From a virus, in the UHGV virus genome UHGV-0356621: a DNA stretch of 43,895 nt, one strand, 5' to 3'. Within the stretch, counting starts at the first letter, position 1, and each line of letters opens with the position of its first letter. Made by a program: the position numbers and the translations under genes. This document shows, piece by piece, positions 32,757-39,806 of this stretch. Below the pieces are notes generated by a model. It made no database searches, was not told the DNA's origin, and saw only the letters and a list, made by a program, of their open reading frames with translations.

Positions 32757-33742
32757 CGCATCACCTCATAGGCCCAGTCAGTGTTGTTGAAGTCCAGATC
32801 CGGCTTGCCAGATTCTTCGCCTGTCTGCTGCTTGTTGCGTTTGATATCGAGCTGAGTCCACTTGTCGCGCAGCGTTGCCGGACATAGAACATTTCCCTTC
32901 CAGAACTTGTCGTTACAGGCCCATTTGAACAGGGCAGCAATTTCGTAGTGGGTGCGATCGTCACGCTCGCGCATCAGGCGGATGTCGTTAGCCCACGCTG
33001 CATAGTTTGGTTTTTTGGCAGATGGTGAAATGCTTTGCACCATGGTGAACAGCCATTCCGCGCAGCGAAGGTCTTCAGAGTTACCCCACTTTGTGCCGCT
33101 CTGAATTGCCGCTTCAGGTTTCATGACAGGCGGTTTCTTTCCGGGCTTGTCAGAGGATTCGTCAGAATTCTCGGACGTAGAGTTATTTATATTCTTGTTA
33201 TTACCTTCTTGTTCATGATGTGCGGGGAATTGTGCGGCCTTATGTGCGGCATACCCATCTGAACCCGCGCCGTTACTGACTTCATCATGTGCGCCTGTAT
33301 GTGCGGCTTTATGTGCGGGTAAATCGTCCATTTTTTGAGCATATTCGACGTAATTTGTGATGGTGATCACCCTGCCTTTTCGTTTCTCTCCCTCGATGGA
33401 AATCATCCCTTCGCGGACGAAAACTGACAGCATTCTCTCCACAGCGTCGCGGCTTGTCGGGTTGCCCTGACGGTCACACAACTGAAGGCCAAGATCTGCA
33501 GCAGTGACGACCAGTTGACCGGGTTGCAGAGGCCATTGCTTGCCCTTGAAGAATGCCGTGTATGGCTGTCTGGCTGCGTCAATGAGCAGGTTCTCCCACA
33601 GCGCGCGCAGGAACACATCCTTAGCCCAGGACTTCTTCTTGATGCTCCGGTACAACGGGACGTAACCAGACTTCTGGTTCTCCATCCTGTTGCTCCTTGC
33701 GGCTGAGTGCGCCGCGAAATTTGCGTAAGCGACGTTCGACAC
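32753..33742 (-). CDS. O: Replication initiator (O-like)
   Basis: GTG start with AGGAGG 7 nt upstream. An N-terminal winged-helix-like region (GYVPLYRSIKKKSWAKDVFLRALWENLL...) is followed by a low-complexity linker and a C-terminal domain. It lies directly upstream of P. Confidence 0.7.
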   Translation of the reverse strand: MSNVAYANFAAHSAARSNRMENQKSGYVPLYRSIKKKSWAKDVFLRALWENLLIDAARQPYTAFFKGKQWPLQPGQLVVTAADLGLQLCDRQGNPTSRDAVERMLSVFVREGMISIEGEKRKGRVITITNYVEYAQKMDDLPAHKAAHTGAHDEVSNGAGSDGYAAHKAAQFPAHHEQEGNNKNINNSTSENSDESSDKPGKKPPVMKPEAAIQSGTKWGNSEDLRCAEWLFTMVQSISPSAKKPNYAAWANDIRLMRERDDRTHYEIAALFKWACNDKFWKGNVLCPATLRDKWTQLDIKRNKQQTGEESGKPDLDFNNTDWAYEVMR

Positions 33743-33823
33743 AGTTAAACCTCCTGCGCCTGGCGTTTTGGATTAGCGTTTGTCATAATGACCTCGCAAT
33801 TGACTGACGTTTGTTGCACCAGA

Positions 33824-33852
33824 AAGCCGGTTCTGTTCGCGCAGACCGGCTT
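33824..33852 (-). terminator. Hairpin between cII and O (tR1-like candidate; bidirectional shape)
   Basis: AAGCCGGT(T)CTG-ttcgcg-CAGACCGGCTT, a 10-bp stem with one bulge. It is followed by TTTC on the minus strand and by TTTTCCCCTTTC on the plus strand. Confidence 0.5.
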
Positions 33853-33867
33853 TTCCCCTTTCTACGT

Positions 33868-34089
33868 TCATGCTTCAAAATCTCCCTTCTCTCCATCCCT
33901 GTTCGAAATCAGGATGGCAAGCAGCAGCGACATGTTCGGTACCAGGTTTTCCCGCCACCGGCTGACTGTGGATTTGTTGATGCCAGCTACTTCGGCTATC
34001 CGGGCGGTACCCAGATCAGCGATTTGCCGCTGCACCCAGCTCTCAATTCGTCGTGCCTCCGCTTTGTTGCGTGTCGTTAAGGTCTCCAT
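33868..34089 (-). CDS. cII: CII-like transcriptional activator
   Basis: RNKAEARRIESWVQRQIADLGTARIAEVAGINKSTVSRWRENLVPNMSLLLAIL parallels lambda CII (RNEALRIES...LGTEKTAEAVGVDKSQISRW...SMLLAVL). GAGGAA SD is present. Confidence 0.75.
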   Translation of the reverse strand: METLTTRNKAEARRIESWVQRQIADLGTARIAEVAGINKSTVSRWRENLVPNMSLLLAILISNRDGEKGDFEA

Positions 34090-34116
34090 TTGCGATACTT
34101 CCTCTGAATTAATTGG

Positions 34117-34350
34117 TTATGCCGCGGTATTTCGCGGCGAGGCAAAAACCAGGCTCTCTTTGAGCACCGGATCCTGGCGGTGAAATTTTTTTGTGGCATC
34201 TTCGATAGCCGATGCCATTTCTGGTGATGCGCGACGATTTCCGTAAGCGATCTGGTCCAGATAACCTGGCGTTGTGTTTGCCAGTTTTGCGAGCTGCGCC
34301 CATTCGTCTGTAGTGGCGCCCTTACGCCAGCGATGCAGTTCAGTACTCAT
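34117..34350 (-). CDS. cro: Cro-like repressor (YdaS/Cro HTH family)
   Basis: 77 aa and first gene of the leftward operon, divergent from cI. The HTH is WAQLAKLANTTPGYLDQIAYGNRRASPEMASAIEDAT. GGAGA SD is present. Confidence 0.7.
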   Translation of the reverse strand: MSTELHRWRKGATTDEWAQLAKLANTTPGYLDQIAYGNRRASPEMASAIEDATKKFHRQDPVLKESLVFASPRNTAA

Positions 34351-34380
34351 TGGTGTCTCCGGTTGAGTCGTTTGATTTGG

Positions 34381-34409
34381 AGTTTAGCGTTATGCTAAAT
34401 ACTACGCAA
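34381..34409 (-). promoter_or_regulatory. pR candidate: TTGCGT-17 nt-TAAACT
   Basis: On the minus strand, -35 is at 34409-34404 and -10 at 34386-34381. Operator OR1 fills the spacer. It lies about 24 nt upstream of the cro ATG region. Confidence 0.6.
34383..34399. promoter_or_regulatory. Operator OR1: TTTAGCGTTATGCTAAA (perfect TTTAGC-N5-GCTAAA palindrome)
   Basis: Read directly; it overlaps the pR spacer and -10. Confidence 0.7.
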
Positions 34410-34415
34410 GCAACA

Positions 34416-34432
34416 TTTAGCAATTTGCACAT
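34416..34432. promoter_or_regulatory. Operator OR2 candidate: TTTAGCAATTTGCACAT
   Basis: The left half-site is perfect; the right half matches 3/6. Confidence 0.45.
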
Positions 34433-34448
34433 TTATCATTTTGCTAAA
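34432..34448. promoter_or_regulatory. Operator OR3 candidate: TTTATCATTTTGCTAAA
   Basis: Half-sites match 5/6 and 6/6. It lies next to the cI start, and an AACAAT -10-like hexamer (34455-34460) sits 7 nt before the cI ATG, which suggests a leaderless pRM-type transcript. Confidence 0.55.
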
Positions 34449-34466
34449 AGCAGTAACAATGCAGGG

Positions 34467-35144
34467 ATGGAAAATAAAGAAATCAGAAAAGCCAACCTGG
34501 AAGCGCTGTATGAGAAGCGCCAGCACGAGTCTGGAATGACAAAGGCGCAGTTCGCCGAGCTCATCGAGACAAGTCCGGCTGCGCTTAGCCAGCTGCTGGG
34601 ACCAAACCCTCATCGCAATATCGGCGATAAGATGGCTCGCAAAATTGAAAGTGCGCTTGATCTGCCTTTTGGTTGGATGGATGTTTTACACACCAGTGAA
34701 GAACCTTCGAACGTTGCATTTCGAGGACTGAACGAGACAAAAGGAAGTTATCCTGTAATCAGCTGGGTAAGCGCGGGGCAATGGATGGAAGCTGTAGAAC
34801 CTTATCACCGAAGAGCGATAGATCGCTGGTATGACACGACTGTTGACTGCTCAGAAGATTCATTCTGGCTGGACGTTAAAGGGGATTCTATGACCTCCCC
34901 GGCTGGACTGAGCATACCCGAGGGAGCAGCGATACTTGTTGATCCTGAAGTCGAGCCGCGCAACGGAAAGCTGGTTGTCGCGAAGCTAGAAGGCGATAAC
35001 GAAGCGACCTTTAAGAAGCTTGTAATCGATGCCGGCAGACGCTTCCTAAAGCCCCTTAACCCCGCATATCCAATGCTAGAAATTAATGGAAACTGCAAAA
35101 TCATCGGCGTTGTGGTTGATGCCAAAATACTAAACATCCCATAA
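34467..35144 (+). CDS. cI: CI-type repressor (HTH + LexA/S24 autocleavage domain)
   Basis: The N-terminal HTH (MTKAQFAELIETSPAALSQLL) is followed by a C-terminal S24 domain with GDSM (Ser nucleophile) and VVAKLEGDNEATFKKL (Lys), as in lambda CI. The upstream part of the track ORF covers the operators and is rejected. Confidence 0.85.
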   Translation: MENKEIRKANLEALYEKRQHESGMTKAQFAELIETSPAALSQLLGPNPHRNIGDKMARKIESALDLPFGWMDVLHTSEEPSNVAFRGLNETKGSYPVISWVSAGQWMEAVEPYHRRAIDRWYDTTVDCSEDSFWLDVKGDSMTSPAGLSIPEGAAILVDPEVEPRNGKLVVAKLEGDNEATFKKLVIDAGRRFLKPLNPAYPMLEINGNCKIIGVVVDAKILNIP

Positions 35145-35162
35145 CCTCACGCAAAACCCCTC

Positions 35163-35188
35163 AAGCCCGCCATCGCGCGGGCTTTTTT
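35163..35188 (+). terminator. Rho-independent terminator after cI
   Basis: AAGCCCGC-catcgc-GCGGGCTT followed by TTTTTT, 19 nt after the cI stop. Confidence 0.85.
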
Positions 35189-35227
35189 ACGTCCCGAATT
35201 CCTTCGCTGTAAATTTTTAATCGCTTA

Positions 35228-35244
35228 TTAATCAATACGCTAAA
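35228..35244. promoter_or_regulatory. Operator OL3 candidate: TTAATCAATACGCTAAA
   Basis: Half-sites match 4/6 and 6/6. Confidence 0.45.
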
Positions 35245-35260
35245 TAAAACCATTCAACAA

Positions 35261-35277
35261 TTTAGCATTTTGCTATT
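35261..35277. promoter_or_regulatory. Operator OL2 candidate: TTTAGCATTTTGCTATT
   Basis: Half-sites match 6/6 and 4/6. Confidence 0.5.
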
Positions 35278-35304
35278 GCGCATAATTTAGCATCACGCTA
35301 AATT
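35276..35304 (+). promoter_or_regulatory. pL candidate: TTGCGC-17 nt-TAAATT
   Basis: It mirrors the pR architecture (the same -35/-10 words with an operator in the spacer) and fires rightward into the early-left operon. Confidence 0.6.
35286..35302. promoter_or_regulatory. Operator OL1: TTTAGCATCACGCTAAA (perfect half-sites)
   Basis: Read directly; it overlaps the pL spacer and -10. Confidence 0.7.
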
Positions 35305-35862
35305 TACCCCATCGAAACGAAACATCGACAGCTGAGCGAAGTTAGCCAGCGGCGGACAGCAAGTCGCCTGCTTTTTTAACAAATCAGACTGAGTGACAGG
35401 CAAGCCGTAGCTCTCCTGGCAAAAAGAAATGGCACCCGATGGGATCGAGGTAAGCACTGAGTCCGTATGCGTACGGTAGGTGTAGAGGACCACGCTGCGA
35501 TGAGCTGATAAGTCACTCAATTTGAAGCGCTCCGATGATGGGGCGCTGATTCAACTTAGAGGAGTGATTCCAATGAAGAACTAAAGCGGACAGACCGCAG
35601 CCTAAAGGCAATGCAGCAGTAATGATGCCGCCCTGAGTCGCCGAATGGCGAGCCTGTGTAGTGATGGGTCAAGGTTCTTATATCAAAACAAGCTCCGGTA
35701 AAGCAGCGCGAACGCCAGACGCGCACCGGTTATGAGCGGCGATGAGCGACAAGGTCTCAAGGGCATGTGCGCGGCCACTGCGAGAGTGTGGCGAAGTTTA
35801 CCAGCAGCTCTTTGCGAGGGGCTGACGGCAAATCTACTCCACTTATTTAAAAGAGACGGTAT
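35305..35862 (+). ncRNA. Long untranslated pL leader (candidate cis-regulatory/antitermination RNA)
   Basis: No forward ORF of 60 aa or more. By eye, stop codons are frequent in all three forward frames. There are several local hairpins and a long-range 8-bp pairing. GC content is similar to coding DNA. Confidence 0.4.
35348..35378 (+). terminator. Hairpin + U6 about 40 nt after the predicted pL start (attenuator/terminator; U-tract embedded in a boxA-like TGCTTTTTTAACAA)
   Basis: AGC-GGCGG-acagcaag-TCGCC-(T)-GCT followed by TTTTTT. See findings for interpretation. Confidence 0.5.
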
Positions 35863-36036
35863 ATGGATAATCAGGATAATGAGTTAAGAAAGGTTGTTCA
35901 GGAACTTGCTGATGAAGAAGGCATCAGCTTTTCCGATGCCCTAGATGTTTCGATTAAAGCGCTGCGTTATGAGGTAGAGCGCAGAAAATCGTTTAACGGT
36001 GAAGCTGCTTGTGATGGCTCTGCAATTACTTCTTAG
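35863..36036 (+). CDS. 57-aa acidic hypothetical protein (not in the ORF track)
   Basis: MDNQDNELRKVVQELADEEGISFSDALDVSIKALRYEVERRKSFNGEAACDGSAITS. It sits in an AT-rich segment, has a weak SD, and its 3' end overlaps the convergent gene by 11 nt. Confidence 0.3.
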   Translation: MDNQDNELRKVVQELADEEGISFSDALDVSIKALRYEVERRKSFNGEAACDGSAITS

Positions 36037-36304
36037 CCAAGTACCAAGAGGTGTCTGCGGCTTCGGAAACCAGTACGTAATAGCTTTGCTTTACACTACT
36101 AGCTATACCTCTGACTTCCTCTCTAACGTTATATGCAGTTGATGTTTTTACGGTTGTATATTCAGCTGTTGGGAGGTTAAACCAAGTGCCATTACCATCC
36201 TGTATCTCACGCGAATAACCCTTTGCTTTCATCTTTTCATGAAGATTTTCATAGTCTTCAGAATCAGCGCCGCGCAACTCAACTCGAACAATATATCTTG
36301 CCAT
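36026..36304 (-). CDS. 92-aa hypothetical protein, antisense to the early-left operon
   Basis: MARYIVRVELRGADSEDYENLHEKMKAKGYSREIQDG... shows an alternating beta/alpha (ferredoxin-like) pattern and is AT-rich. The long track ORF (to 36595) has a Cys/Ser-rich, implausible extension. Confidence 0.5.
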   Translation of the reverse strand: MARYIVRVELRGADSEDYENLHEKMKAKGYSREIQDGNGTWFNLPTAEYTTVKTSTAYNVREEVRGIASSVKQSYYVLVSEAADTSWYLAKK

Positions 36305-36319
36305 AAGAAGATTCCTATA

Positions 36320-36364
36320 TTGACTGTGGAATGAGCAACATATCAGTTTCCTTTGACTGTGGAA
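36320..36364. repeat. Direct repeat TTGACTGTGGAA (36320-36331 and 36353-36364), period 33 bp
   Basis: Read directly. Similarity extends to ...GAGCAA / AGCAAA. The repeat sits 16-60 nt upstream of the 92-aa gene start. Confidence 0.85.
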
Positions 36365-36530
36365 AGCAAAGGGACACGGGCCGGGCGTGGATAAAAATCC
36401 CGGCAATAACTGGAATGTTTTGTAGTGCAGTGAATTGCAGCTGCATCGACGGCAACCGGAAGATAAGCACCCGGCGCTGCACCACAAAGCATTTCTCCCG
36501 CATCCGCGGGTAACGACAGAGGGTAAAAGG

Positions 36531-36827
36531 ATGATCGACGACATCAAGCGCATCGACTCAATGATAAATGTGCTTCGAAATATGAAACAGGACATTAAGC
36601 GCCAGCAGAAACTAAGTGAAATAAACAGCTTAGACCTTACGCCAAAGCAAGCTCAAAAGCGCAATGCCGATGCTGGCTGGATTGCGATGGAACAGATTAA
36701 GCGCCGGCATGAGCTGCACGCTCTGTCAGTTGAGCTTGGGTTCGCTGAACGCCGGGAAAGTTATGCTCCATTTGAATTAACTGACGGGTGGCACCGATTC
36801 AACCACAAGCCGCGCGAACCTCAATAG
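36531..36827 (+). CDS. Hypothetical early protein
   Basis: 98 aa starting MIDDIKRIDSMINVLRNMKQDIKRQQK, with a GAGGGTAAAAGG SD region. The internal ATG of the track ORF is used. Confidence 0.45.
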   Translation: MIDDIKRIDSMINVLRNMKQDIKRQQKLSEINSLDLTPKQAQKRNADAGWIAMEQIKRRHELHALSVELGFAERRESYAPFELTDGWHRFNHKPREPQ

Positions 36828-36848
36828 CCGCCTAGCCAGCGGCTTTTT
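36826..36848 (+). terminator. Intrinsic terminator inside the early-left operon
   Basis: AGCCGC-ctagcca-GCGGCT followed by TTTTT; it overlaps the stop codon of the preceding ORF. Confidence 0.65.
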
Positions 36849-36980
36849 CATACCTGGAGTCATTTACGAGTGGCTTAGTTATGACAACCGGCGGCCATCC
36901 ATCGCCCATTGAAACACATAAAAGTGCGTTGAAGTCTTGTATTAACCGTTCCGTTCGCCGCGATAAGGCTAAGAGGATTT

Positions 36981-37241
36981 ATGAGCACTGTAAAGATGAT
37001 TGGCGCCAGTCCACTAACTGGAACAATTTTCGAAGGACGACTTAACCCAGTCAAAAGCTGCTGGGTTGGAAAGAAAACAGATGTTACCGATATGGTTCTG
37101 AGAGCTACCGCTGACCACCTCTACGTTGTGAAAAAGGAATATGCGTTCCCGTTACGAGACGGAAAGGTGGCTGTGTTGAGCATGCATATTTTCGATGAAT
37201 TGCCAGAGCGCTTCATTGGTGGCACGGAGCATGGCGAATGA
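36981..37241 (+). CDS. Hypothetical early protein
   Basis: 86-aa ORF with an AAGAGG SD. It is the first of a chain of ATGA-coupled ORFs. Confidence 0.45.
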   Translation: MSTVKMIGASPLTGTIFEGRLNPVKSCWVGKKTDVTDMVLRATADHLYVVKKEYAFPLRDGKVAVLSMHIFDELPERFIGGTEHGE

Positions 37242-37399
37242 TGACAGTCACCCACAACGGCAAGCAGTACACCGCCAAAAAGCTCAACGATAACGAGTGG
37301 CAGCTGACGTCCGTATCGGCACCGCGTGAAAAGCTGACGCTTAACCGCTGGCAGATGCATATGGCTGGCCTCCTGGTACAGGTAGAGGTGAAGGTATGA
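37238..37399 (+). CDS. 53-aa hypothetical protein (not in the ORF track)
   Basis: MMTVTHNGKQYTAKKLNDNEWQLTSVSAPREKLTLNRWQMHMAGLLVQVEVKV, with ATGA overlaps at both ends. Confidence 0.35.
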   Translation: MMTVTHNGKQYTAKKLNDNEWQLTSVSAPREKLTLNRWQMHMAGLLVQVEVKV

Positions 37400-37602
37400 T
37401 TGGAATGCACTACGGCACCGCATCAGTGCCACGTAGCGAGGTTTTACCTGGCACAATGCTGCAACACCACGGCAAAACTTATCGCGCCTCTGCGAACGTT
37501 GAGAAAGGCCTGTACGCCTTCAACATCTTCGAAAAAACCATCATCAAAAGTGATTCCGTCGTTGTGCTGCTGAATGAGCGCGGCGAGCCGATGGTTCACT
37601 GA
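37396..37602 (+). CDS. Hypothetical early protein
   Basis: 68-aa ORF, ATGA-coupled to the previous ORF. Confidence 0.4.
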   Translation: MIGMHYGTASVPRSEVLPGTMLQHHGKTYRASANVEKGLYAFNIFEKTIIKSDSVVVLLNERGEPMVH

Positions 37603-37678
37603 TACCAACCAACCTATTCAACCGATCGGCCTGGCTAAAAGCGGGCGGGATCTGCACATCCAAATTTCAGGAGAAACC

Positions 37679-38650
37679 ATGAGCGAAGTAACGGACTTAA
37701 CTGTCATCGAAATCAAGCCGGAACAGGCCCCAGTGCTTTACGTAGCGGGCGGCCTTGACGCGTACCTTGAGCAAATCCGCCAGGCTGTAAACGAAGTGCC
37801 GGACCTGTCCACGAAGAAAGGCCGTGACCGTGTTGCCTCTCTGGCAGCGCAGGTGTCCCGCAGCAAGACGGCAATCGAAAAGCCGGGCCGTGAGTACCTG
37901 AAGCGCCTGAAAGAGGCTGTACGCCCTGCCGAGGCCGAAATTAAGCGATTCGTTGATGCCTGCGACGAGCTGCGCGATGCGACCCGCCGCCCACTCACCG
38001 AATGGGAAGCCGAGCAGGAACGCATTAAGGCTGAAGAAGCCATGAACGCGATGCACGCCGAAGCGCTGGAGATGAACATCAGGTTCGATCAGGAGCTGGC
38101 TGCCAAGTTCGAAGCGGACCACGAAATGGCTCTACTGATGAACAAGGATTTTGACCGTGACCGCGAAGAGCAGCGCCGTCTGGCGGAACAGGCTCAGCGT
38201 GAACGTGATGAGCGGCTGAAACAGGAAGCGGCAGAACAAGCCCGCCGCGATGCCGAAGCGAAGCACAAAGCGGAGATTGAAGCCGCAGCGCGCCGTGAAG
38301 CTGAAGAGAAAGCACGTGCAGAGCTGGCTGAACGCCAGCGCGTCGAAGCGGAACAGCGTGCAGCTCGCGAGAAGCAGGAAGCAGAAGCCCGGGCAGAACG
38401 CGAAAAAGCCGCGGCGGTTGAAGCCGAGCGCCTGAAGGCCAAACAGGCCGAAGATGCCCGCCTGGCCGAAGAGAAGCGCCTCGCCGATGAGCAGGCAAAG
38501 CGTGAAGCTGACGTTAAGCACCGCAAGACGGTCGGCACCAACATCGTTAACGCGCTCACCAGCAACACCAGCTTAACCCGCGAACAGGCTATCGAAGTGC
38601 TTACCGCTCTGAAAGATGACCTCATCCCCTGCGCGAAAATTCATTACTGA
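37679..38650 (+). CDS. DUF1351-like protein with long Glu/Ala/Arg/Lys coiled-coil (TolA-like) region
   Basis: Start at MSEVTDL, with a CAGGAG SD. The folded N-terminal part is followed by about 150 aa of EAxRxAExK low-complexity helix. It lies just upstream of the SSAP gene, as DUF1351 proteins often do (from memory). Confidence 0.55.
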   Translation: MSEVTDLTVIEIKPEQAPVLYVAGGLDAYLEQIRQAVNEVPDLSTKKGRDRVASLAAQVSRSKTAIEKPGREYLKRLKEAVRPAEAEIKRFVDACDELRDATRRPLTEWEAEQERIKAEEAMNAMHAEALEMNIRFDQELAAKFEADHEMALLMNKDFDRDREEQRRLAEQAQRERDERLKQEAAEQARRDAEAKHKAEIEAAARREAEEKARAELAERQRVEAEQRAAREKQEAEARAEREKAAAVEAERLKAKQAEDARLAEEKRLADEQAKREADVKHRKTVGTNIVNALTSNTSLTREQAIEVLTALKDDLIPCAKIHY

Positions 38651-38960: not shown

Positions 38961-39806
38961 ATGACAAACGAATTAACAATCACCGCGACTTCGCTTCAGG
39001 AAAAAGGTATCGATGTCGCTACCTGGAGCGCGCTGAAGAACAGTATCTACCCTGGTGCCAAAGACGAATCGGTAATGATGGCGCTCGATTACTGCCGTGC
39101 CCGCCAGTTGGATCCACTGCTGAAGCCCGTTCACCTCGTGCCGATGAGCGTCAAAGACTCAAGAACGGGTAAAAGCGAATGGCGCGACGTGGTCATGCCG
39201 GGCATCGGGCTTTACCGCATTCAGGCGGACCGCTCCGGCGATTATGCCGGGGCCCGCGAACCAGAGTTCGGTCCAGACGTAACTCAGACGCTTACTGGTG
39301 TAGAGGTGACTTTCCCTCAGTGGTGCAAATACACCGTCTACAAGCGCATGCCCAGCGGGGAGATCGTCGAGTTCAGCGCCAAAGAATATTGGATTGAAAA
39401 CTACGCCACCGGCGGCCGCGACACCACGGCGCCGAACGCGATGTGGAAAAAGCGCCCATACGGACAGCTGGCGAAATGCGCAGAAGCCCAGGCGTTGCGT
39501 AAGGCATGGCCTGAGATTGGACAGCAGCCTACCGCCGAAGAAATGGAAGGCAAATCACTGGACGTTGATATCCGTGACGTCACGCCGCGCAGCACCACAG
39601 AAGCGCTTCCACCAGCAGCAAGCGAAGAAACGCTTCAGGCCATCACCGATCTCTTAACATCGCTGAATAAAGACTGGGAGCAAGACTTCCTCCCAGTGTG
39701 CAGCGACATCTTCAAACGACCAATTCTTGAGGCGTCAGACCTCACTGAAGAAGAGGCACAGAAAGGGTTCAACTTCCTTCAGAAAAAAGCTAAGGCGGCA
39801 GCATGA
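38961..39806 (+). CDS. bet: Single-strand annealing protein, lambda Bet / RecT superfamily
   Basis: The C-terminus TLQAITDLLTSLNKDWEQDFLPVCSDIFKRPILEASDLTEEEAQKGFNFLQKKA parallels lambda Bet (MQEINTLLIALDKTWDDDLLPLCSQIFRRDIRASSELTQAEAVKALGFLKQKA, from memory). The middle region matches the RecT/Bet core. Confidence 0.85.
   Translation: MTNELTITATSLQEKGIDVATWSALKNSIYPGAKDESVMMALDYCRARQLDPLLKPVHLVPMSVKDSRTGKSEWRDVVMPGIGLYRIQADRSGDYAGAREPEFGPDVTQTLTGVEVTFPQWCKYTVYKRMPSGEIVEFSAKEYWIENYATGGRDTTAPNAMWKKRPYGQLAKCAEAQALRKAWPEIGQQPTAEEMEGKSLDVDIRDVTPRSTTEALPPAASEETLQAITDLLTSLNKDWEQDFLPVCSDIFKRPILEASDLTEEEAQKGFNFLQKKAKAAA

What the first reader, a model, noticed from the sequence alone, without database searches (positions are those of the whole stretch)
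35305..35862. Early-left operon without an N-type gene: about 560 nt of stop-dense, hairpin-rich leader after pL, opening with a hairpin/U-tract fused to a boxA-like TGCTTTTTTAACAA
Seen in the sequence:
- The OL operators and a TTGCGC-17-TAAATT promoter (35276-35304) point rightward. No forward ORF of 60 aa or more exists before 36435. By eye, all three forward frames are interrupted every few dozen nt up to the weak 57-codon ORF at 35863.
- About 40 nt after the predicted start lies AGC-GGCGG-acagcaag-TCGCC-(T)-GCT plus TTTTTT (35348-35378).
- The U-tract is part of TGCTTTTTTAACAAATCAGACTGAGTG. From memory this resembles the rrn / P22-type boxA-boxC leader (TGCTCTTTAACAATTTATCAGACAATCTGTGTG), with the hairpin placed before boxA as in rrn operons.
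- Further in are CCGTA-tgcg-TACGG (35463-35476), TCGCC-gaat-GGCGA (35638-35651), a long-range TGAGTGAC/GTCACTCA pairing (35390-35397 with 35512-35519), and recurring words (GCGGACAG x2, CTGAGT x3, GATGAGC x3).
- The operon still contains an intrinsic terminator at 36826-36848.

Established knowledge: lambdoid early operons need processive antitermination. This comes either from N plus nut sites or, in HK022, from cis-acting put RNA with no phage protein.

Inference: this phage may rely on an RNA-only or host-Nus-only (rrn-like) antitermination element, or the leader may be a processed regulatory ncRNA. Either would be an undescribed variant of the lambdoid switch.
Basis: partly seen in the sequence, partly recalled or inferred. 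Interest (0 to 1): 0.65.

Follow-up and report, generated by a model that had tools for sequence, protein, structure and literature searches.

The report
Mosaic phi80-type N-gene leader RNA
The operon is not N-less: this stretch is the long untranslated leader in front of a phage phi80-type antiterminator gene, assembled from swappable folded-RNA modules, one of which is a widespread RNA motif that matches no Rfam family.

Summary
The sequence features are mostly real, but the premise is wrong. The ORF at 36531-36827 is 96% identical to the phage phi80 protein recorded as N (Swiss-Prot REGN_BPPH8, Pfam PF26859 Phage_N_antitermin). It is followed by the phi80 tL1-type terminator at 36826-36848.

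The hairpin, U-tract and boxA-like word at 35348-35382 are 97.5% identical to the start of phi80's annotated nutL. They have the rrn order, hairpin then boxA.

The rest of the interval is a mosaic of three conserved RNA modules:
- Module B (35383-35547) is a multi-helix domain whose closing helix covaries.
- Element C (35559-35792) is a strong ribosome-binding site plus a 3-codon mini-ORF, followed by a ~220-nt fold. Of its 40 tested pairs, 22 show compensatory changes. It occurs in well over 120 IMG/VR contigs, in 128 of 5,426 complete E. coli genomes and in 32 GTDB species genomes, and has no Rfam match.
- A 36-nt hairpin (35797-35832) is shared with the annotated putL-like RNA of phage HK639.

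A covariance model of HK022/HK639 put RNA finds nothing in the leader.

Best reading: N- and Nus-dependent antitermination nucleated at a phi80-type nutL, with accessory RNA modules of unknown role. RNA-only antitermination is not supported and not fully excluded.

The parts
35276..35304 (+). pL promoter (-35 TTGCGC, -10 TAAATT), overlapped by an operator palindrome ATTTAGC-N6-GCTAAAT
   Evidence: The -10 hexamer aligns with the annotated phi80 pL -10 and the putative HK639 pL. The consensus scan gives 7 of 12 matches, below its threshold. The operator repeats are read from the sequence.
35348..35368 (+). Leader hairpin (AGC-GGCGG / TCGCC-T-GCT), about 45 nt after the inferred start. It is terminator-like when read together with the following U-tract
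   Evidence: Called terminator-like. It is identical in phi80, ENT1 and several IMG/VR loci. L119 carries GGCGG/CCGCC with a different loop. It occupies the position of the rrn boxB hairpin.
35369..35382 (+). boxA-like TGCTTTTTTAACAA
   Evidence: It is homologous to the feature annotated 'nutL boxA; putative' in phi80 JX871397. Phage 606R2 has a perfect GCTCTTTAACAA at the same place, and yong1 has GCTCTTTAA. The rrnB boxA was fetched for comparison.
35383..35547 (+). Module B, a multi-helix RNA domain closed by 35389-35397 / 35512-35520 and ending in the hairpin 35526-35547.
   Evidence: It is about 85% identical in the pL leader of phage vB_EcoM-606R2, which has a different immunity region. 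It is about 79% identical over its first 110 nt in ENT1 and L061. The closing helix covaries: GAGTGAC/GTCACTC, GCGTGAC/GTCACGC, AGCAGC/GCTGCT. Only three lineages were compared.
35559..35584 (+). 5' edge of element C: Shine-Dalgarno GGAG (35561-35564), then the mini-ORF ATG AAG AAC TAA (35573-35584)
   Evidence: A Shine-Dalgarno, a start codon and an in-frame stop are present in 69 of 81 distinct 5' flanks. In 61 of these the ORF is 1-3 codons. In 43 of the 69 the stop lies 1-2 nt before helix P1. The peptide sequence is not conserved.
35572..35792 (+). Element C core, a ~220-nt structured RNA. Helices: P1 35586-89/35595-98; P2 35600-02/35607-09; P3 35613-18/35626-31; P4 35638-42/35647-51; P6 35695-99/35725-29; P7 35706-10/35720-24; P10 35746-48/35770-72; P9 35756-59/35766-69; P8 35774-78/35788-92
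   Evidence: In 62 representatives, 93.4% of cells are paired against 22-39% when partners are slid. 22 of 40 pairs change on both sides, against a shuffle mean of 9.7 (0 of 500 shuffles reach it). P9 shows compensatory changes in a set anchored on the 5' half. One-nucleotide indels exclude coding. Many G-U pairs fit only the + strand. No Rfam hit was found.
35797..35832 (+). 36-nt hairpin TTTACC-AG-CAGC...GCTG-AC-GGCAAA
   Evidence: It is 97% identical to HK639 L001:2645-2680, inside the feature annotated 'putL-like antiterminator RNA', but downstream of the two-stem put core. It is also present in ENT1. The near-identical E. coli prophage leaders end their homology at 35832.
35863..36036 (+). 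57-aa ORF with no family match, part of an insert relative to related leaders
   Evidence: No PHROGs, Pfam or NCBIfam hit.
36026..36307 (-). Opposite-strand 93-aa gene (phrog_8894; weak YmfI / GhoS-like matches), a moron inside the leader
36437..36530 (+). 3' part of the N leader, shared with phi80, ENT1 and (first half) the mEp213 N leader
   Evidence: The sequence compared. The marker AAGCATTTCTCCCGCAT is found in many loci.
36531..36827 (+). phi80-type N gene (98 aa)
   Evidence: It matches phi80 N in 94 of 98 residues. The cluster carries the name REGN_BPPH8 'Probable regulatory protein N'. The Pfam family is PF26859 Phage_N_antitermin. It has no hit to the classical N_peptide family.
36826..36848 (+). 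Intrinsic terminator, the equivalent of phi80 tL1A
   Evidence: phi80 annotates tL1A in the same place, overlapping the N stop codon.

Best explanation
Window 35305-35862 is the first half of a 1.2-kb untranslated leader that runs from pL to a phi80-type N gene (36531-36827) and its tL1 terminator.

Proposed mechanism:
1. Shown by homology: the transcript starts just after 35304 and makes the hairpin and boxA-like word that it shares with phi80's nutL.
2. Inferred from the phi80 database records and from established N/Nus biology: the phi80-type N protein, together with host Nus factors bound at boxA, converts RNA polymerase into a termination-resistant form. This form reads through tL1 into kil, gam and the recombination genes.
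3. Shown: relative to phi80, the leader has been rebuilt by module exchange. phi80's distal nutL segment is replaced by structured module B. Element C and the 36-nt hairpin are inserted. A small cassette of two genes, one on the opposite strand, splits the leader from its 3' end.
4. Inferred, low confidence: element C is a portable cis-acting module that engages a ribosome at its mini-ORF. The stop codon abuts helix P1, so an initiating or terminating ribosome must open P1. I propose that it sets the fate of the downstream part of an antiterminated, poorly translated transcript. That fate could be folding, protection from Rho or RNases, or expression of the next gene. It does not itself create antitermination.
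For: N and its terminator:
- The window protein matches phi80 N in 94 of 98 residues.
- The phi80 records annotate pL, nutL boxA, N and tL1A in the same order. M11919 annotates a 278-nt 'nutL regulatory signal', 'N protein' and 't-L1'.
- The protein cluster is named REGN_BPPH8 and the family is PF26859 Phage_N_antitermin.
- The terminator is called at 36826.

Leader start:
- It is 97.5% identical to phi80.
- Hairpin followed by boxA is conserved in phi80, 606R2, yong1 and rrnB.

Operon content: kil and gam-like genes lie downstream.

Module exchange:
- The same flanks hold put in HK639, B-prime in ENT1, the phi80 nutL segment in L019, L098 and L129, and B in the window.
- Element C is present or absent independently of which of these modules is there.

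Element C:
- Covariation supports its fold.
- The mini-ORF is conserved.
- It always lies on the strand of the surrounding operon. It is found in pL leaders before N genes, after Q and the late terminator, and between lysis and packaging genes.
Against: - The phi80 'N' family has no arginine-rich motif and no similarity to the classical N family. It is predicted to be a folded helical hairpin plus beta-hairpin (pLDDT 89.6), with no informative structural match.
- In Hafnia phage yong1 and in a Proteus prophage it lies beside a canonical arginine-rich N. It may therefore be an accessory protein, not the antiterminator.
- The part of phi80's nutL that carries its annotated 'nutL core' hairpin is absent from the window, yet the N proteins are 96% identical.
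- No boxA-like site or other leader module is found in the rightward operon.
- The original phi80 papers could not be read.
- Nothing computed here shows what element C does.
Confidence: 0.6

Rival explanations
1. RNA-only processive antitermination. Module B or element C, perhaps with the 36-nt hairpin, acts like HK022/HK639 put RNA. It would bind the elongating polymerase and make it terminator-resistant without a phage protein. The PF26859 protein would have some other role.
For: - HK639 carries put in exactly this slot, between the same 5' leader (92% identity over 52 nt) and the same 36-nt hairpin (97%).
- That hairpin lies inside HK639's annotated putL-like RNA.
- B and C are conserved folds at the head of operons that must pass terminators.
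- PF26859 co-occurs with a canonical N elsewhere.
Against: - The put covariance model gives 64 bits on HK639. It gives at most 4.3 bits in the window leader and 2.5 bits in the phi80 leader with filters off.
- There is only one copy per phage and none in the rightward operon.
- C also lies in leaders that have a canonical N. In Klebsiella phage RothC it lies downstream of Q and of a terminator-like hairpin I read as tR', so it cannot be what gets polymerase past that terminator.
Confidence: 0.12
2. Host-only, rrn-like antitermination. The hairpin plus boxA recruits NusB/NusE/NusA/NusG (with SuhB and S4) as in ribosomal RNA operons, with no phage factor.
For: Hairpin followed by boxA is the rrn order. 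It is conserved in four phage pL leaders. Phage 606R2 has a perfect GCTCTTTAACAA.
Against: - The window's boxA has C5 changed to U and an extra U.
- The sequence after boxA is not conserved, so there is no boxC.
- A phi80-type N gene is present.
- From established knowledge: rrn-type complexes mainly counter Rho and are weak against intrinsic terminators such as tL1.
Confidence: 0.08
3. Element C, with or without B, is cut out of the leader and acts in trans as a stable non-coding RNA. It might act as a decoy or sponge for a host ribosome-associated or defence factor.
For: - C is a self-contained module with sharp conservation boundaries.
- It sits in many unrelated operon contexts and next to unrelated genes.
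- It is widespread in Enterobacterales prophages.
Against: - It has no promoter or terminator of its own. Terminator-like sites lie within 200 nt downstream in only 33 of 167 contexts, against 21 of 334 control windows.
- It always lies on the operon strand, inside operons.
- No processing data are available.
Confidence: 0.15
4. The interval hides a small protein gene, an unrecognised N-like peptide.
For: ORFs of 51 aa (35732-35887) and 57 aa (35863-36036) exist.
Against: - Homologues of the interval differ by many 1-nt indels.
- The 57-aa ORF matches no family and lies beyond the point where related prophages stop being homologous.
- The only conserved reading frame is the 1-3 codon mini-ORF.
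Confidence: 0.03

Closest known systems
Phage phi80 early-left control region: pL, nutL, N, tL1 (GenBank M11919 and JX871397)
   Same: - The -10 hexamer is in the same position and the first ~80 transcribed nt are 97.5% identical, including the hairpin and the annotated putative nutL boxA.
- About 55 nt before N are shared.
- The N proteins are 96% identical.
- The terminator overlaps the N stop codon in both.
   Different: - phi80's ~150-nt distal nutL segment, with its annotated 'nutL core' hairpin, is replaced by module B.
- Element C, the 36-nt hairpin and a two-gene insert are added, so the leader is 1.2 kb instead of 0.42 kb.
- The operators and repressor are different.
put antiterminator RNAs of HK022 and HK639
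   Same: - Both lie directly downstream of pL.
- HK639 shares the 5' leader and the 36-nt hairpin that flank its put core.
   Different: - There is no put core by covariance model.
- There is no second (R) copy.
- An N-type gene is present.
- B and C are much larger (about 165 and 220 nt against about 70 nt).
E. coli rrn leader antitermination site (boxB hairpin, boxA, boxC)
   Same: A hairpin is followed immediately by a boxA-like UGCU(C/U)UUUAACAA.
   Different: - boxA is imperfect, with one substitution and one extra U.
- No boxC is conserved.
- The element lies in a phage operon that has its own N-type protein.
Lambda N / nut system
   Same: - N is the first conserved gene after pL and is followed by tL1.
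- boxA is in the leader.
- kil, gam and recombination genes lie downstream.
   Different: - The hairpin precedes boxA instead of following it.
- The protein is unrelated to the arginine-rich N peptide family and is predicted to be folded.
- No nutR is recognisable.
Lambda bar minigenes (own knowledge: Shine-Dalgarno plus two-codon ORFs in the pL transcript, toxic to cells short of peptidyl-tRNA hydrolase)
   Same: A strong Shine-Dalgarno plus a 1-3 codon ORF inside an early-left or other phage operon transcript.
   Different: Here the mini-ORF is fused to a conserved ~220-nt fold and its position relative to helix P1 is fixed. No toxicity or drop-off data exist. The resemblance is recalled from memory and was not tested.

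Membership tests
phi80-type N / nutL antitermination system | Homologue of the phi80 N protein (REGN_BPPH8, PF26859) | tested here: met
   94 of 98 residues identical.
phi80-type N / nutL antitermination system | Leader homologous to the phi80 nutL region (M11919 661-938) | tested here: inconclusive
   Only the promoter-proximal ~55 nt of that 278-nt region are shared: the hairpin and boxA, 97.5% identical. The remainder, including the annotated 'nutL core', is replaced by module B.
phi80-type N / nutL antitermination system | Intrinsic terminator directly after N (tL1A) | tested here: met
   36826-36844 plus a T-run. phi80 annotates it at the same place.
phi80-type N / nutL antitermination system | N-dependent read-through of tL1 | not testable with these tools
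   This needs a reporter assay. The phi80 papers could not be read.
Lambda/P22/21-type N-nut system | Arginine-rich N peptide (Pfam N_peptide) | tested here: not met
   No N-family hit for any early-left ORF. The mEp213 N, used as a positive control, hits N_peptide at 7.7e-16.
Lambda/P22/21-type N-nut system | boxA followed by a boxB hairpin, with a second nut site in the rightward operon | tested here: not met
   The hairpin precedes boxA. No other boxA-like word or leader repeat is found in the window.
HK022/HK639 put RNA | The put sequence and two-stem fold | tested here: not met
   Model R1 scores 64.4 bits on HK639. With filters off it scores at most 4.3 bits in window 35250-36560 and at most 2.5 bits in the phi80 leader.
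HK022/HK639 put RNA | Paired L and R copies after both early promoters | tested here: not met
   No second copy of any leader module is found in the window.
HK022/HK639 put RNA | Protein-independent antitermination that is blocked by RNA polymerase beta-prime zinc-binding-domain mutations | not testable with these tools
   This needs genetics or in vitro transcription. The mechanism is taken from PMC9378689.
rrn-type antitermination leader | boxA consensus UGCUCUUUAACAA preceded by a hairpin | tested here: inconclusive
   The hairpin is present. boxA has one substitution and one inserted U. Related leaders have one or no mismatch. The word alone is not significant.
rrn-type antitermination leader | Conserved boxC-like segment after boxA | tested here: not met
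   The sequence after boxA differs among the window, phi80, 606R2 and yong1. The window's TGAGTG is one strand of module B's covarying closing helix.
Any Rfam 15 family (for B, C and the hairpins) | Covariance-model match | tested here: not met
   Only noise appears, at E-values of 2.2 or more, in window 35300-35870. Nothing hits element C in seven homologous loci or in 33500-38000.

The most novel reading that the evidence does not exclude
Element C, alone or together with module B, is a new class of portable, ribosome-engaging leader RNA. It would make transcription complexes or their transcripts resistant to termination or decay without a dedicated phage protein. That would be a second RNA-based solution, unrelated to put, that phages move between pL leaders, late-operon leaders and internal operon sites. 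The phi80-type 'N' would then be an accessory factor.
Probability: 0.12. Interest if true: 0.85.

Novelty: new variant of a known kind. Interest (0 to 1): 0.5.

Why it matters
- It corrects a tempting misreading. phi80-type N proteins escape the classical N-family models (PHROGs and the local Pfam copy gave no N hit), so such operons look N-less.
- It shows that the region between pL and N in phi80-like phages is a cassette site. Functionally different RNA modules are exchanged there: put, the phi80 nutL segment, B and B-prime.
- It brings to light a well-supported structured RNA with an attached mini-ORF. The RNA is common in Enterobacterales prophages, including Stx2c phages, and matches no Rfam family.
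- If that RNA acts on elongation, Rho or mRNA fate, it would add a new cis-element to the textbook lambdoid switch.
- It also raises a testable question: is the folded phi80 'N' really an N analogue?

Tried and rejected
- Rfam scans of the window and of eight related loci, seven of which carry element C, gave nothing for B or C.
- A put covariance model gave nothing in the window, phi80 or ENT1 leaders. By eye I had noted put-like strings, namely a stem-loop followed by U(C/A)GG(G)UG and ACGG(G)CAA. The model did not bear them out, so I dropped them.
- Coding potential was rejected because of 1-nt indels and the lack of any conserved frame.
- A self-BLAST of the leader against the window found no second copy.
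- Word repeats and the whole-leader folding energy are at chance.
- A CGGTAG word in B resembles the RfaH ops core. It is not conserved in 606R2 or ENT1 and was rejected as chance.
- Two further pairings in element C could not be tested because the columns do not vary. These are a long-range alternative to P1 (35595-98 with 35736-39) and a P3-loop/GUUAU pseudoknot.
- Terminators near C are enriched about threefold downstream, but are present in only 20% of contexts. C is therefore not an obligatory attenuator.
- Two copies of C in E. coli ABWA45 turned out to belong to two tandem prophages, not to an L/R pair.
- The Pas, STnc100 and other prophage sRNAs are unrelated.
- King et al. 2011 (HK639) and the phi80 genome paper are not held in the library.
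- Sequence and fold searches with the phi80-type N gave only generic coiled-coil hits.
Full report
**Layout.** The window carries a lambdoid immunity region.
- A cro-like gene lies on the minus strand at 34117-34350.
- An S24-peptidase repressor lies at about 34470-35144 on the plus strand.
- A terminator lies at 35163-35184.
- Operator palindromes (ATTTAGC-N-GCTAAAT) follow.
- TTGCGC-17-TAAATT lies at 35276-35304 and points rightward.

The consensus scan does not call this promoter, at 7 of 12 matches. However, its -10 hexamer aligns base for base with the annotated pL -10 of phi80 and with the putative pL of HK639. The next ~50-80 nt are 92-97.5% identical to those phages. I accept it as pL.

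**The observation.**
- There is no forward ORF of 60 aa or more before 36435.
- The hairpin and U-tract lie at 35351-35378.
- The boxA-like TGCTTTTTTAACAA, the two small hairpins and the long-range pairing TGAGTGAC/GTCACTCA are present.
- The terminator lies at 36826.

Several of the statistical impressions do not hold.
- GATGAGC occurs twice, not three times.
- The repeated words are at chance level.
- The stop frequency is ordinary, at 5.6% of positions.
- The leader as a whole folds no better than shuffled sequence (z = -0.11).

**The premise fails.**
- The ORF listed from 36435 contains, from the ATG at 36531, a 98-aa protein. It matches in 94 of 98 residues the phi80 protein annotated 'early transcription antiterminator protein N'.
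- Record M11919 ('phi-80 cI immunity region encoding the N gene') annotates a 278-nt nutL signal, the N protein and tL1 in the same order.
- The protein cluster carries the Swiss-Prot name REGN_BPPH8, 'Probable regulatory protein N'. Its Pfam family is PF26859 Phage_N_antitermin.
- The terminator at 36826-36848 corresponds to phi80 tL1A, which likewise overlaps the N stop codon.

**The hairpin and boxA.**
- Positions 35304-35382 are 97.5% identical to phi80, including the feature annotated 'nutL boxA; putative'.
- I fetched the E. coli rrnB leader and aligned it with four phage pL leaders: the window, phi80, vB_EcoM-606R2 and Hafnia phage yong1.
- All have a hairpin followed directly by (A/U)GCU(C/U)UUU(U)AA(C/A)AA. 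606R2 has the perfect rrn word.
- The rrn-like order, hairpin then boxA, is therefore real and conserved.
TGAGTG belongs to a covarying helix of module B.
- No boxA-like word occurs anywhere else in the window.

**A mosaic of modules.** Comparison of related leaders shows a fixed 5' part, made of pL, the hairpin and boxA. An exchangeable middle follows:
- the two-stem put core in HK639;
- the phi80 nutL segment in phi80 and in several IMG/VR prophages. Its boxB-like hairpin covaries: CACG-UAAA-CGUG against CGCA-CAAAA-UGCG;
- module B in the window and in 606R2;
- a related B-prime in Enterobacter phage ENT1.

Element C is present or absent independently of which middle module is there. The 36-nt hairpin at 35797-35832 is shared with HK639 and ENT1. 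In HK639 it lies inside the annotated 'putL-like antiterminator RNA', but downstream of the part homologous to HK022 putL and putR.

In the window, a 57-aa ORF and an opposite-strand YmfI/GhoS-like gene (35863-36307) separate these modules from the 3' leader (36437-36530). That 3' leader precedes N in phi80.

**Module B (35383-35547).**
- It follows boxA in the window and, at about 85% identity, in 606R2, whose repressor and operators are different.
It covaries across the three available lineages: GAGUGAC/GUCACUC, GCGUGAC/GUCACGC, AGCAGC/GCUGCU.
- The sample is small, so I regard B as a probable structured domain at the place where nut 'core' elements sit.

**Element C (35559-35792).** This is the best-supported new object.
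- Distribution.
  - A pattern from its 5' half found many more.
  - C is in 128 of 5,426 complete E. coli genomes, mostly under no annotated feature and never as an RNA gene.
  - It is in 32 GTDB species representatives, almost all Enterobacterales.
  - It is in phages that include mEp213, Stx2c phages, Hafnia yong1, Klebsiella RothC and a Providencia phage.
- Boundaries and strand. Conservation starts and stops sharply at 35572 and 35792. One-nucleotide indels exclude a coding region. Frequent G-U pairs fit only the plus strand.
- Structure.
  - I tested nine helices on 62 representatives that are less than 93% identical to one another.
  - 93.4% of cells are paired, against 22-39% when partners are slid.
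  - 22 of 40 pairs carry changes on both sides, against 9.7 +/- 1.9 in shuffles (0 of 500 reach it).
  - There are 99 compensatory cells against 22 in shuffles.
  - The set anchored on the 5' half adds compensatory changes in P9 (CUCA/UGAG to CUCG/CGAG and CCCA/UGGG). It also reveals a subtype with a different 3' insert.
- Rfam. No family matches C in the window or in seven homologues.
- Mini-ORF. Immediately 5' of the fold, 69 of 81 distinct flanks have a Shine-Dalgarno, a start codon and a stop codon. In 61 of the 69 the ORF is 1-3 codons, and in 43 of the 69 the stop lies 1-2 nt before helix P1. The codons themselves vary. In the window this is GGAG (35561-35564) followed by ATG AAG AAC TAA (35573-35584).

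**Where C sits.** It always lies on the strand of the surrounding operon.
- It lies in pL leaders upstream of canonical arginine-rich N genes in Stx2c phages, yong1 and mEp213.
- It lies after phi80-type nutL segments.
- It lies 110-175 nt after Q genes. In RothC it comes after a terminator-like hairpin that I read as tR', and before tRNA genes.
- It lies between lysis and packaging genes in vB_EcoS-733R5.
- It lies downstream of the N and PF26859 pair in a Proteus prophage.
- It is single-copy per phage.
- Terminators within 200 nt downstream occur in 20% of contexts, against 6% in controls.

C therefore does not establish antitermination at nut or qut. It rides on transcripts made by already modified polymerase.

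**Is any of this put?** I built a covariance model from 15 putL and putR sequences from HK022, HK639 and IMG/VR relatives.
- It recovers HK639 put at 64 bits.
- It finds nothing in the window leader, in phi80 or in ENT1 with default filters.
- With filters off, it finds at most 4.3 bits in the window leader and at most 2.5 bits in the phi80 leader.

Membership in the put family is therefore tested and not met.

**Caveats about N.**
- AlphaFold gives a confident model for the phi80-type protein (pLDDT 89.6): a long helical hairpin plus a small beta-hairpin. This is unlike the disordered lambda N peptide.
- Sequence and fold searches return only generic coiled-coil matches, none significant.
- A 62% identical homologue lies two genes downstream of a lambda-like N in yong1. 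Another lies directly after an arginine-rich N-like ORF in a Proteus prophage.
- The window's N is 96% identical to phi80's, yet the annotated phi80 'nutL core' is not in the window.
- Either the recognition site is the shared hairpin and boxA, or the protein does not read a specific boxB, or it is not the antiterminator.
- I could not read the 1985 and 2012 phi80 papers or King et al. 2011.

**Verdict.**
- The interval is the 5' half of a phi80-type N leader. The most likely mechanism is N- and Nus-dependent antitermination nucleated at the hairpin and boxA (confidence about 0.6).
- Modules B, C and the 36-nt hairpin are conserved accessory RNAs.
- For C, I propose a ribosome-engaging cis module that acts on the fate of the downstream transcript. 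This is inference only.
- RNA-only antitermination (about 0.12) and host-only rrn-like antitermination (about 0.08) are not excluded.
- The finding as written is not a new kind of switch. The RNA motif it led to deserves experimental follow-up.

Noticed in passing
window 35559-35584, and the same position in 69 of 81 distinct element C flanks: A strong Shine-Dalgarno plus a 1-3 codon mini-ORF (here MKN-stop) sits directly before helix P1 of element C. The stop codon lies 1-2 nt from the helix in 43 of the 69 flanks. The peptide varies while the signals are kept. It recalls the lambda bar minigenes.
   Followed up: partly
window 36026-36307 (- strand) and 35863-36036 (+ strand): A 93-aa opposite-strand gene (phrog_8894; weak YmfI and GhoS-like hits) and a 57-aa ORF with no match lie inside the N leader. 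They overlap tail to tail by 11 nt. This looks like a moron insertion.
   Followed up: partly
L005:3395-3694 (Hafnia phage yong1); L286:3223-3803 (Proteus mirabilis prophage): The phi80-type 'N' family (PF26859) coexists with a canonical arginine-rich N in the same early-left operon. This questions whether PF26859 proteins are N analogues or accessory factors.
   Followed up: partly
window 36531-36827 (model m736f4deabab8): The phi80-type N is confidently predicted as a long antiparallel helical hairpin plus a C-terminal beta-hairpin. Among the non-significant fold matches are the secondary-channel factors DksA2 and Gfh1 (E-values 2.4-3.8). This is only a lead.
   Followed up: no
L185:2648-2761 (phage vB_EcoM-606R2): A sub-threshold Rfam match to the RprA sRNA (50 bits against a gathering score of 70, E = 0.0014) lies in the early-left region of this phage.
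   Followed up: no
L008 and L186 (E. coli ABWA45, NZ_CP022154 near 2.70 and 2.75 Mb): Two prophages 47 kb apart carry the same early-left operon, including element C and phi80-type N (WP_000564503.1). Their repressors differ, and one has an added YafO toxin gene.
   Followed up: partly
window 39171-39228 (+ strand): This is the best put-model hit in the window (11.6 bits, E = 0.11). It lies inside the RecT-like gene and is probably chance.
   Followed up: no
window 33823-33850: A G+C-rich hairpin lies just after the cII-like gene, with a T-run on either strand. It is at the place where phi80 annotates the oop-like M3 RNA.
   Followed up: no
L012:2813-2965 (ENT1); L061 and L076: The gene at the 'N position', behind the same 3' leader, differs between relatives. 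It is phi80 N in the window, a 51-aa ORF in ENT1 and a 72-aa ORF (MSYITENIHLL...) in L061 and L076.
   Followed up: no
alignment A3, columns ~183-233 (window ~35652-35694): Element C has at least three alternative versions of its central variable region. A further subtype replaces AGCGGC...GCGACA with an extra hairpin.
   Followed up: partly
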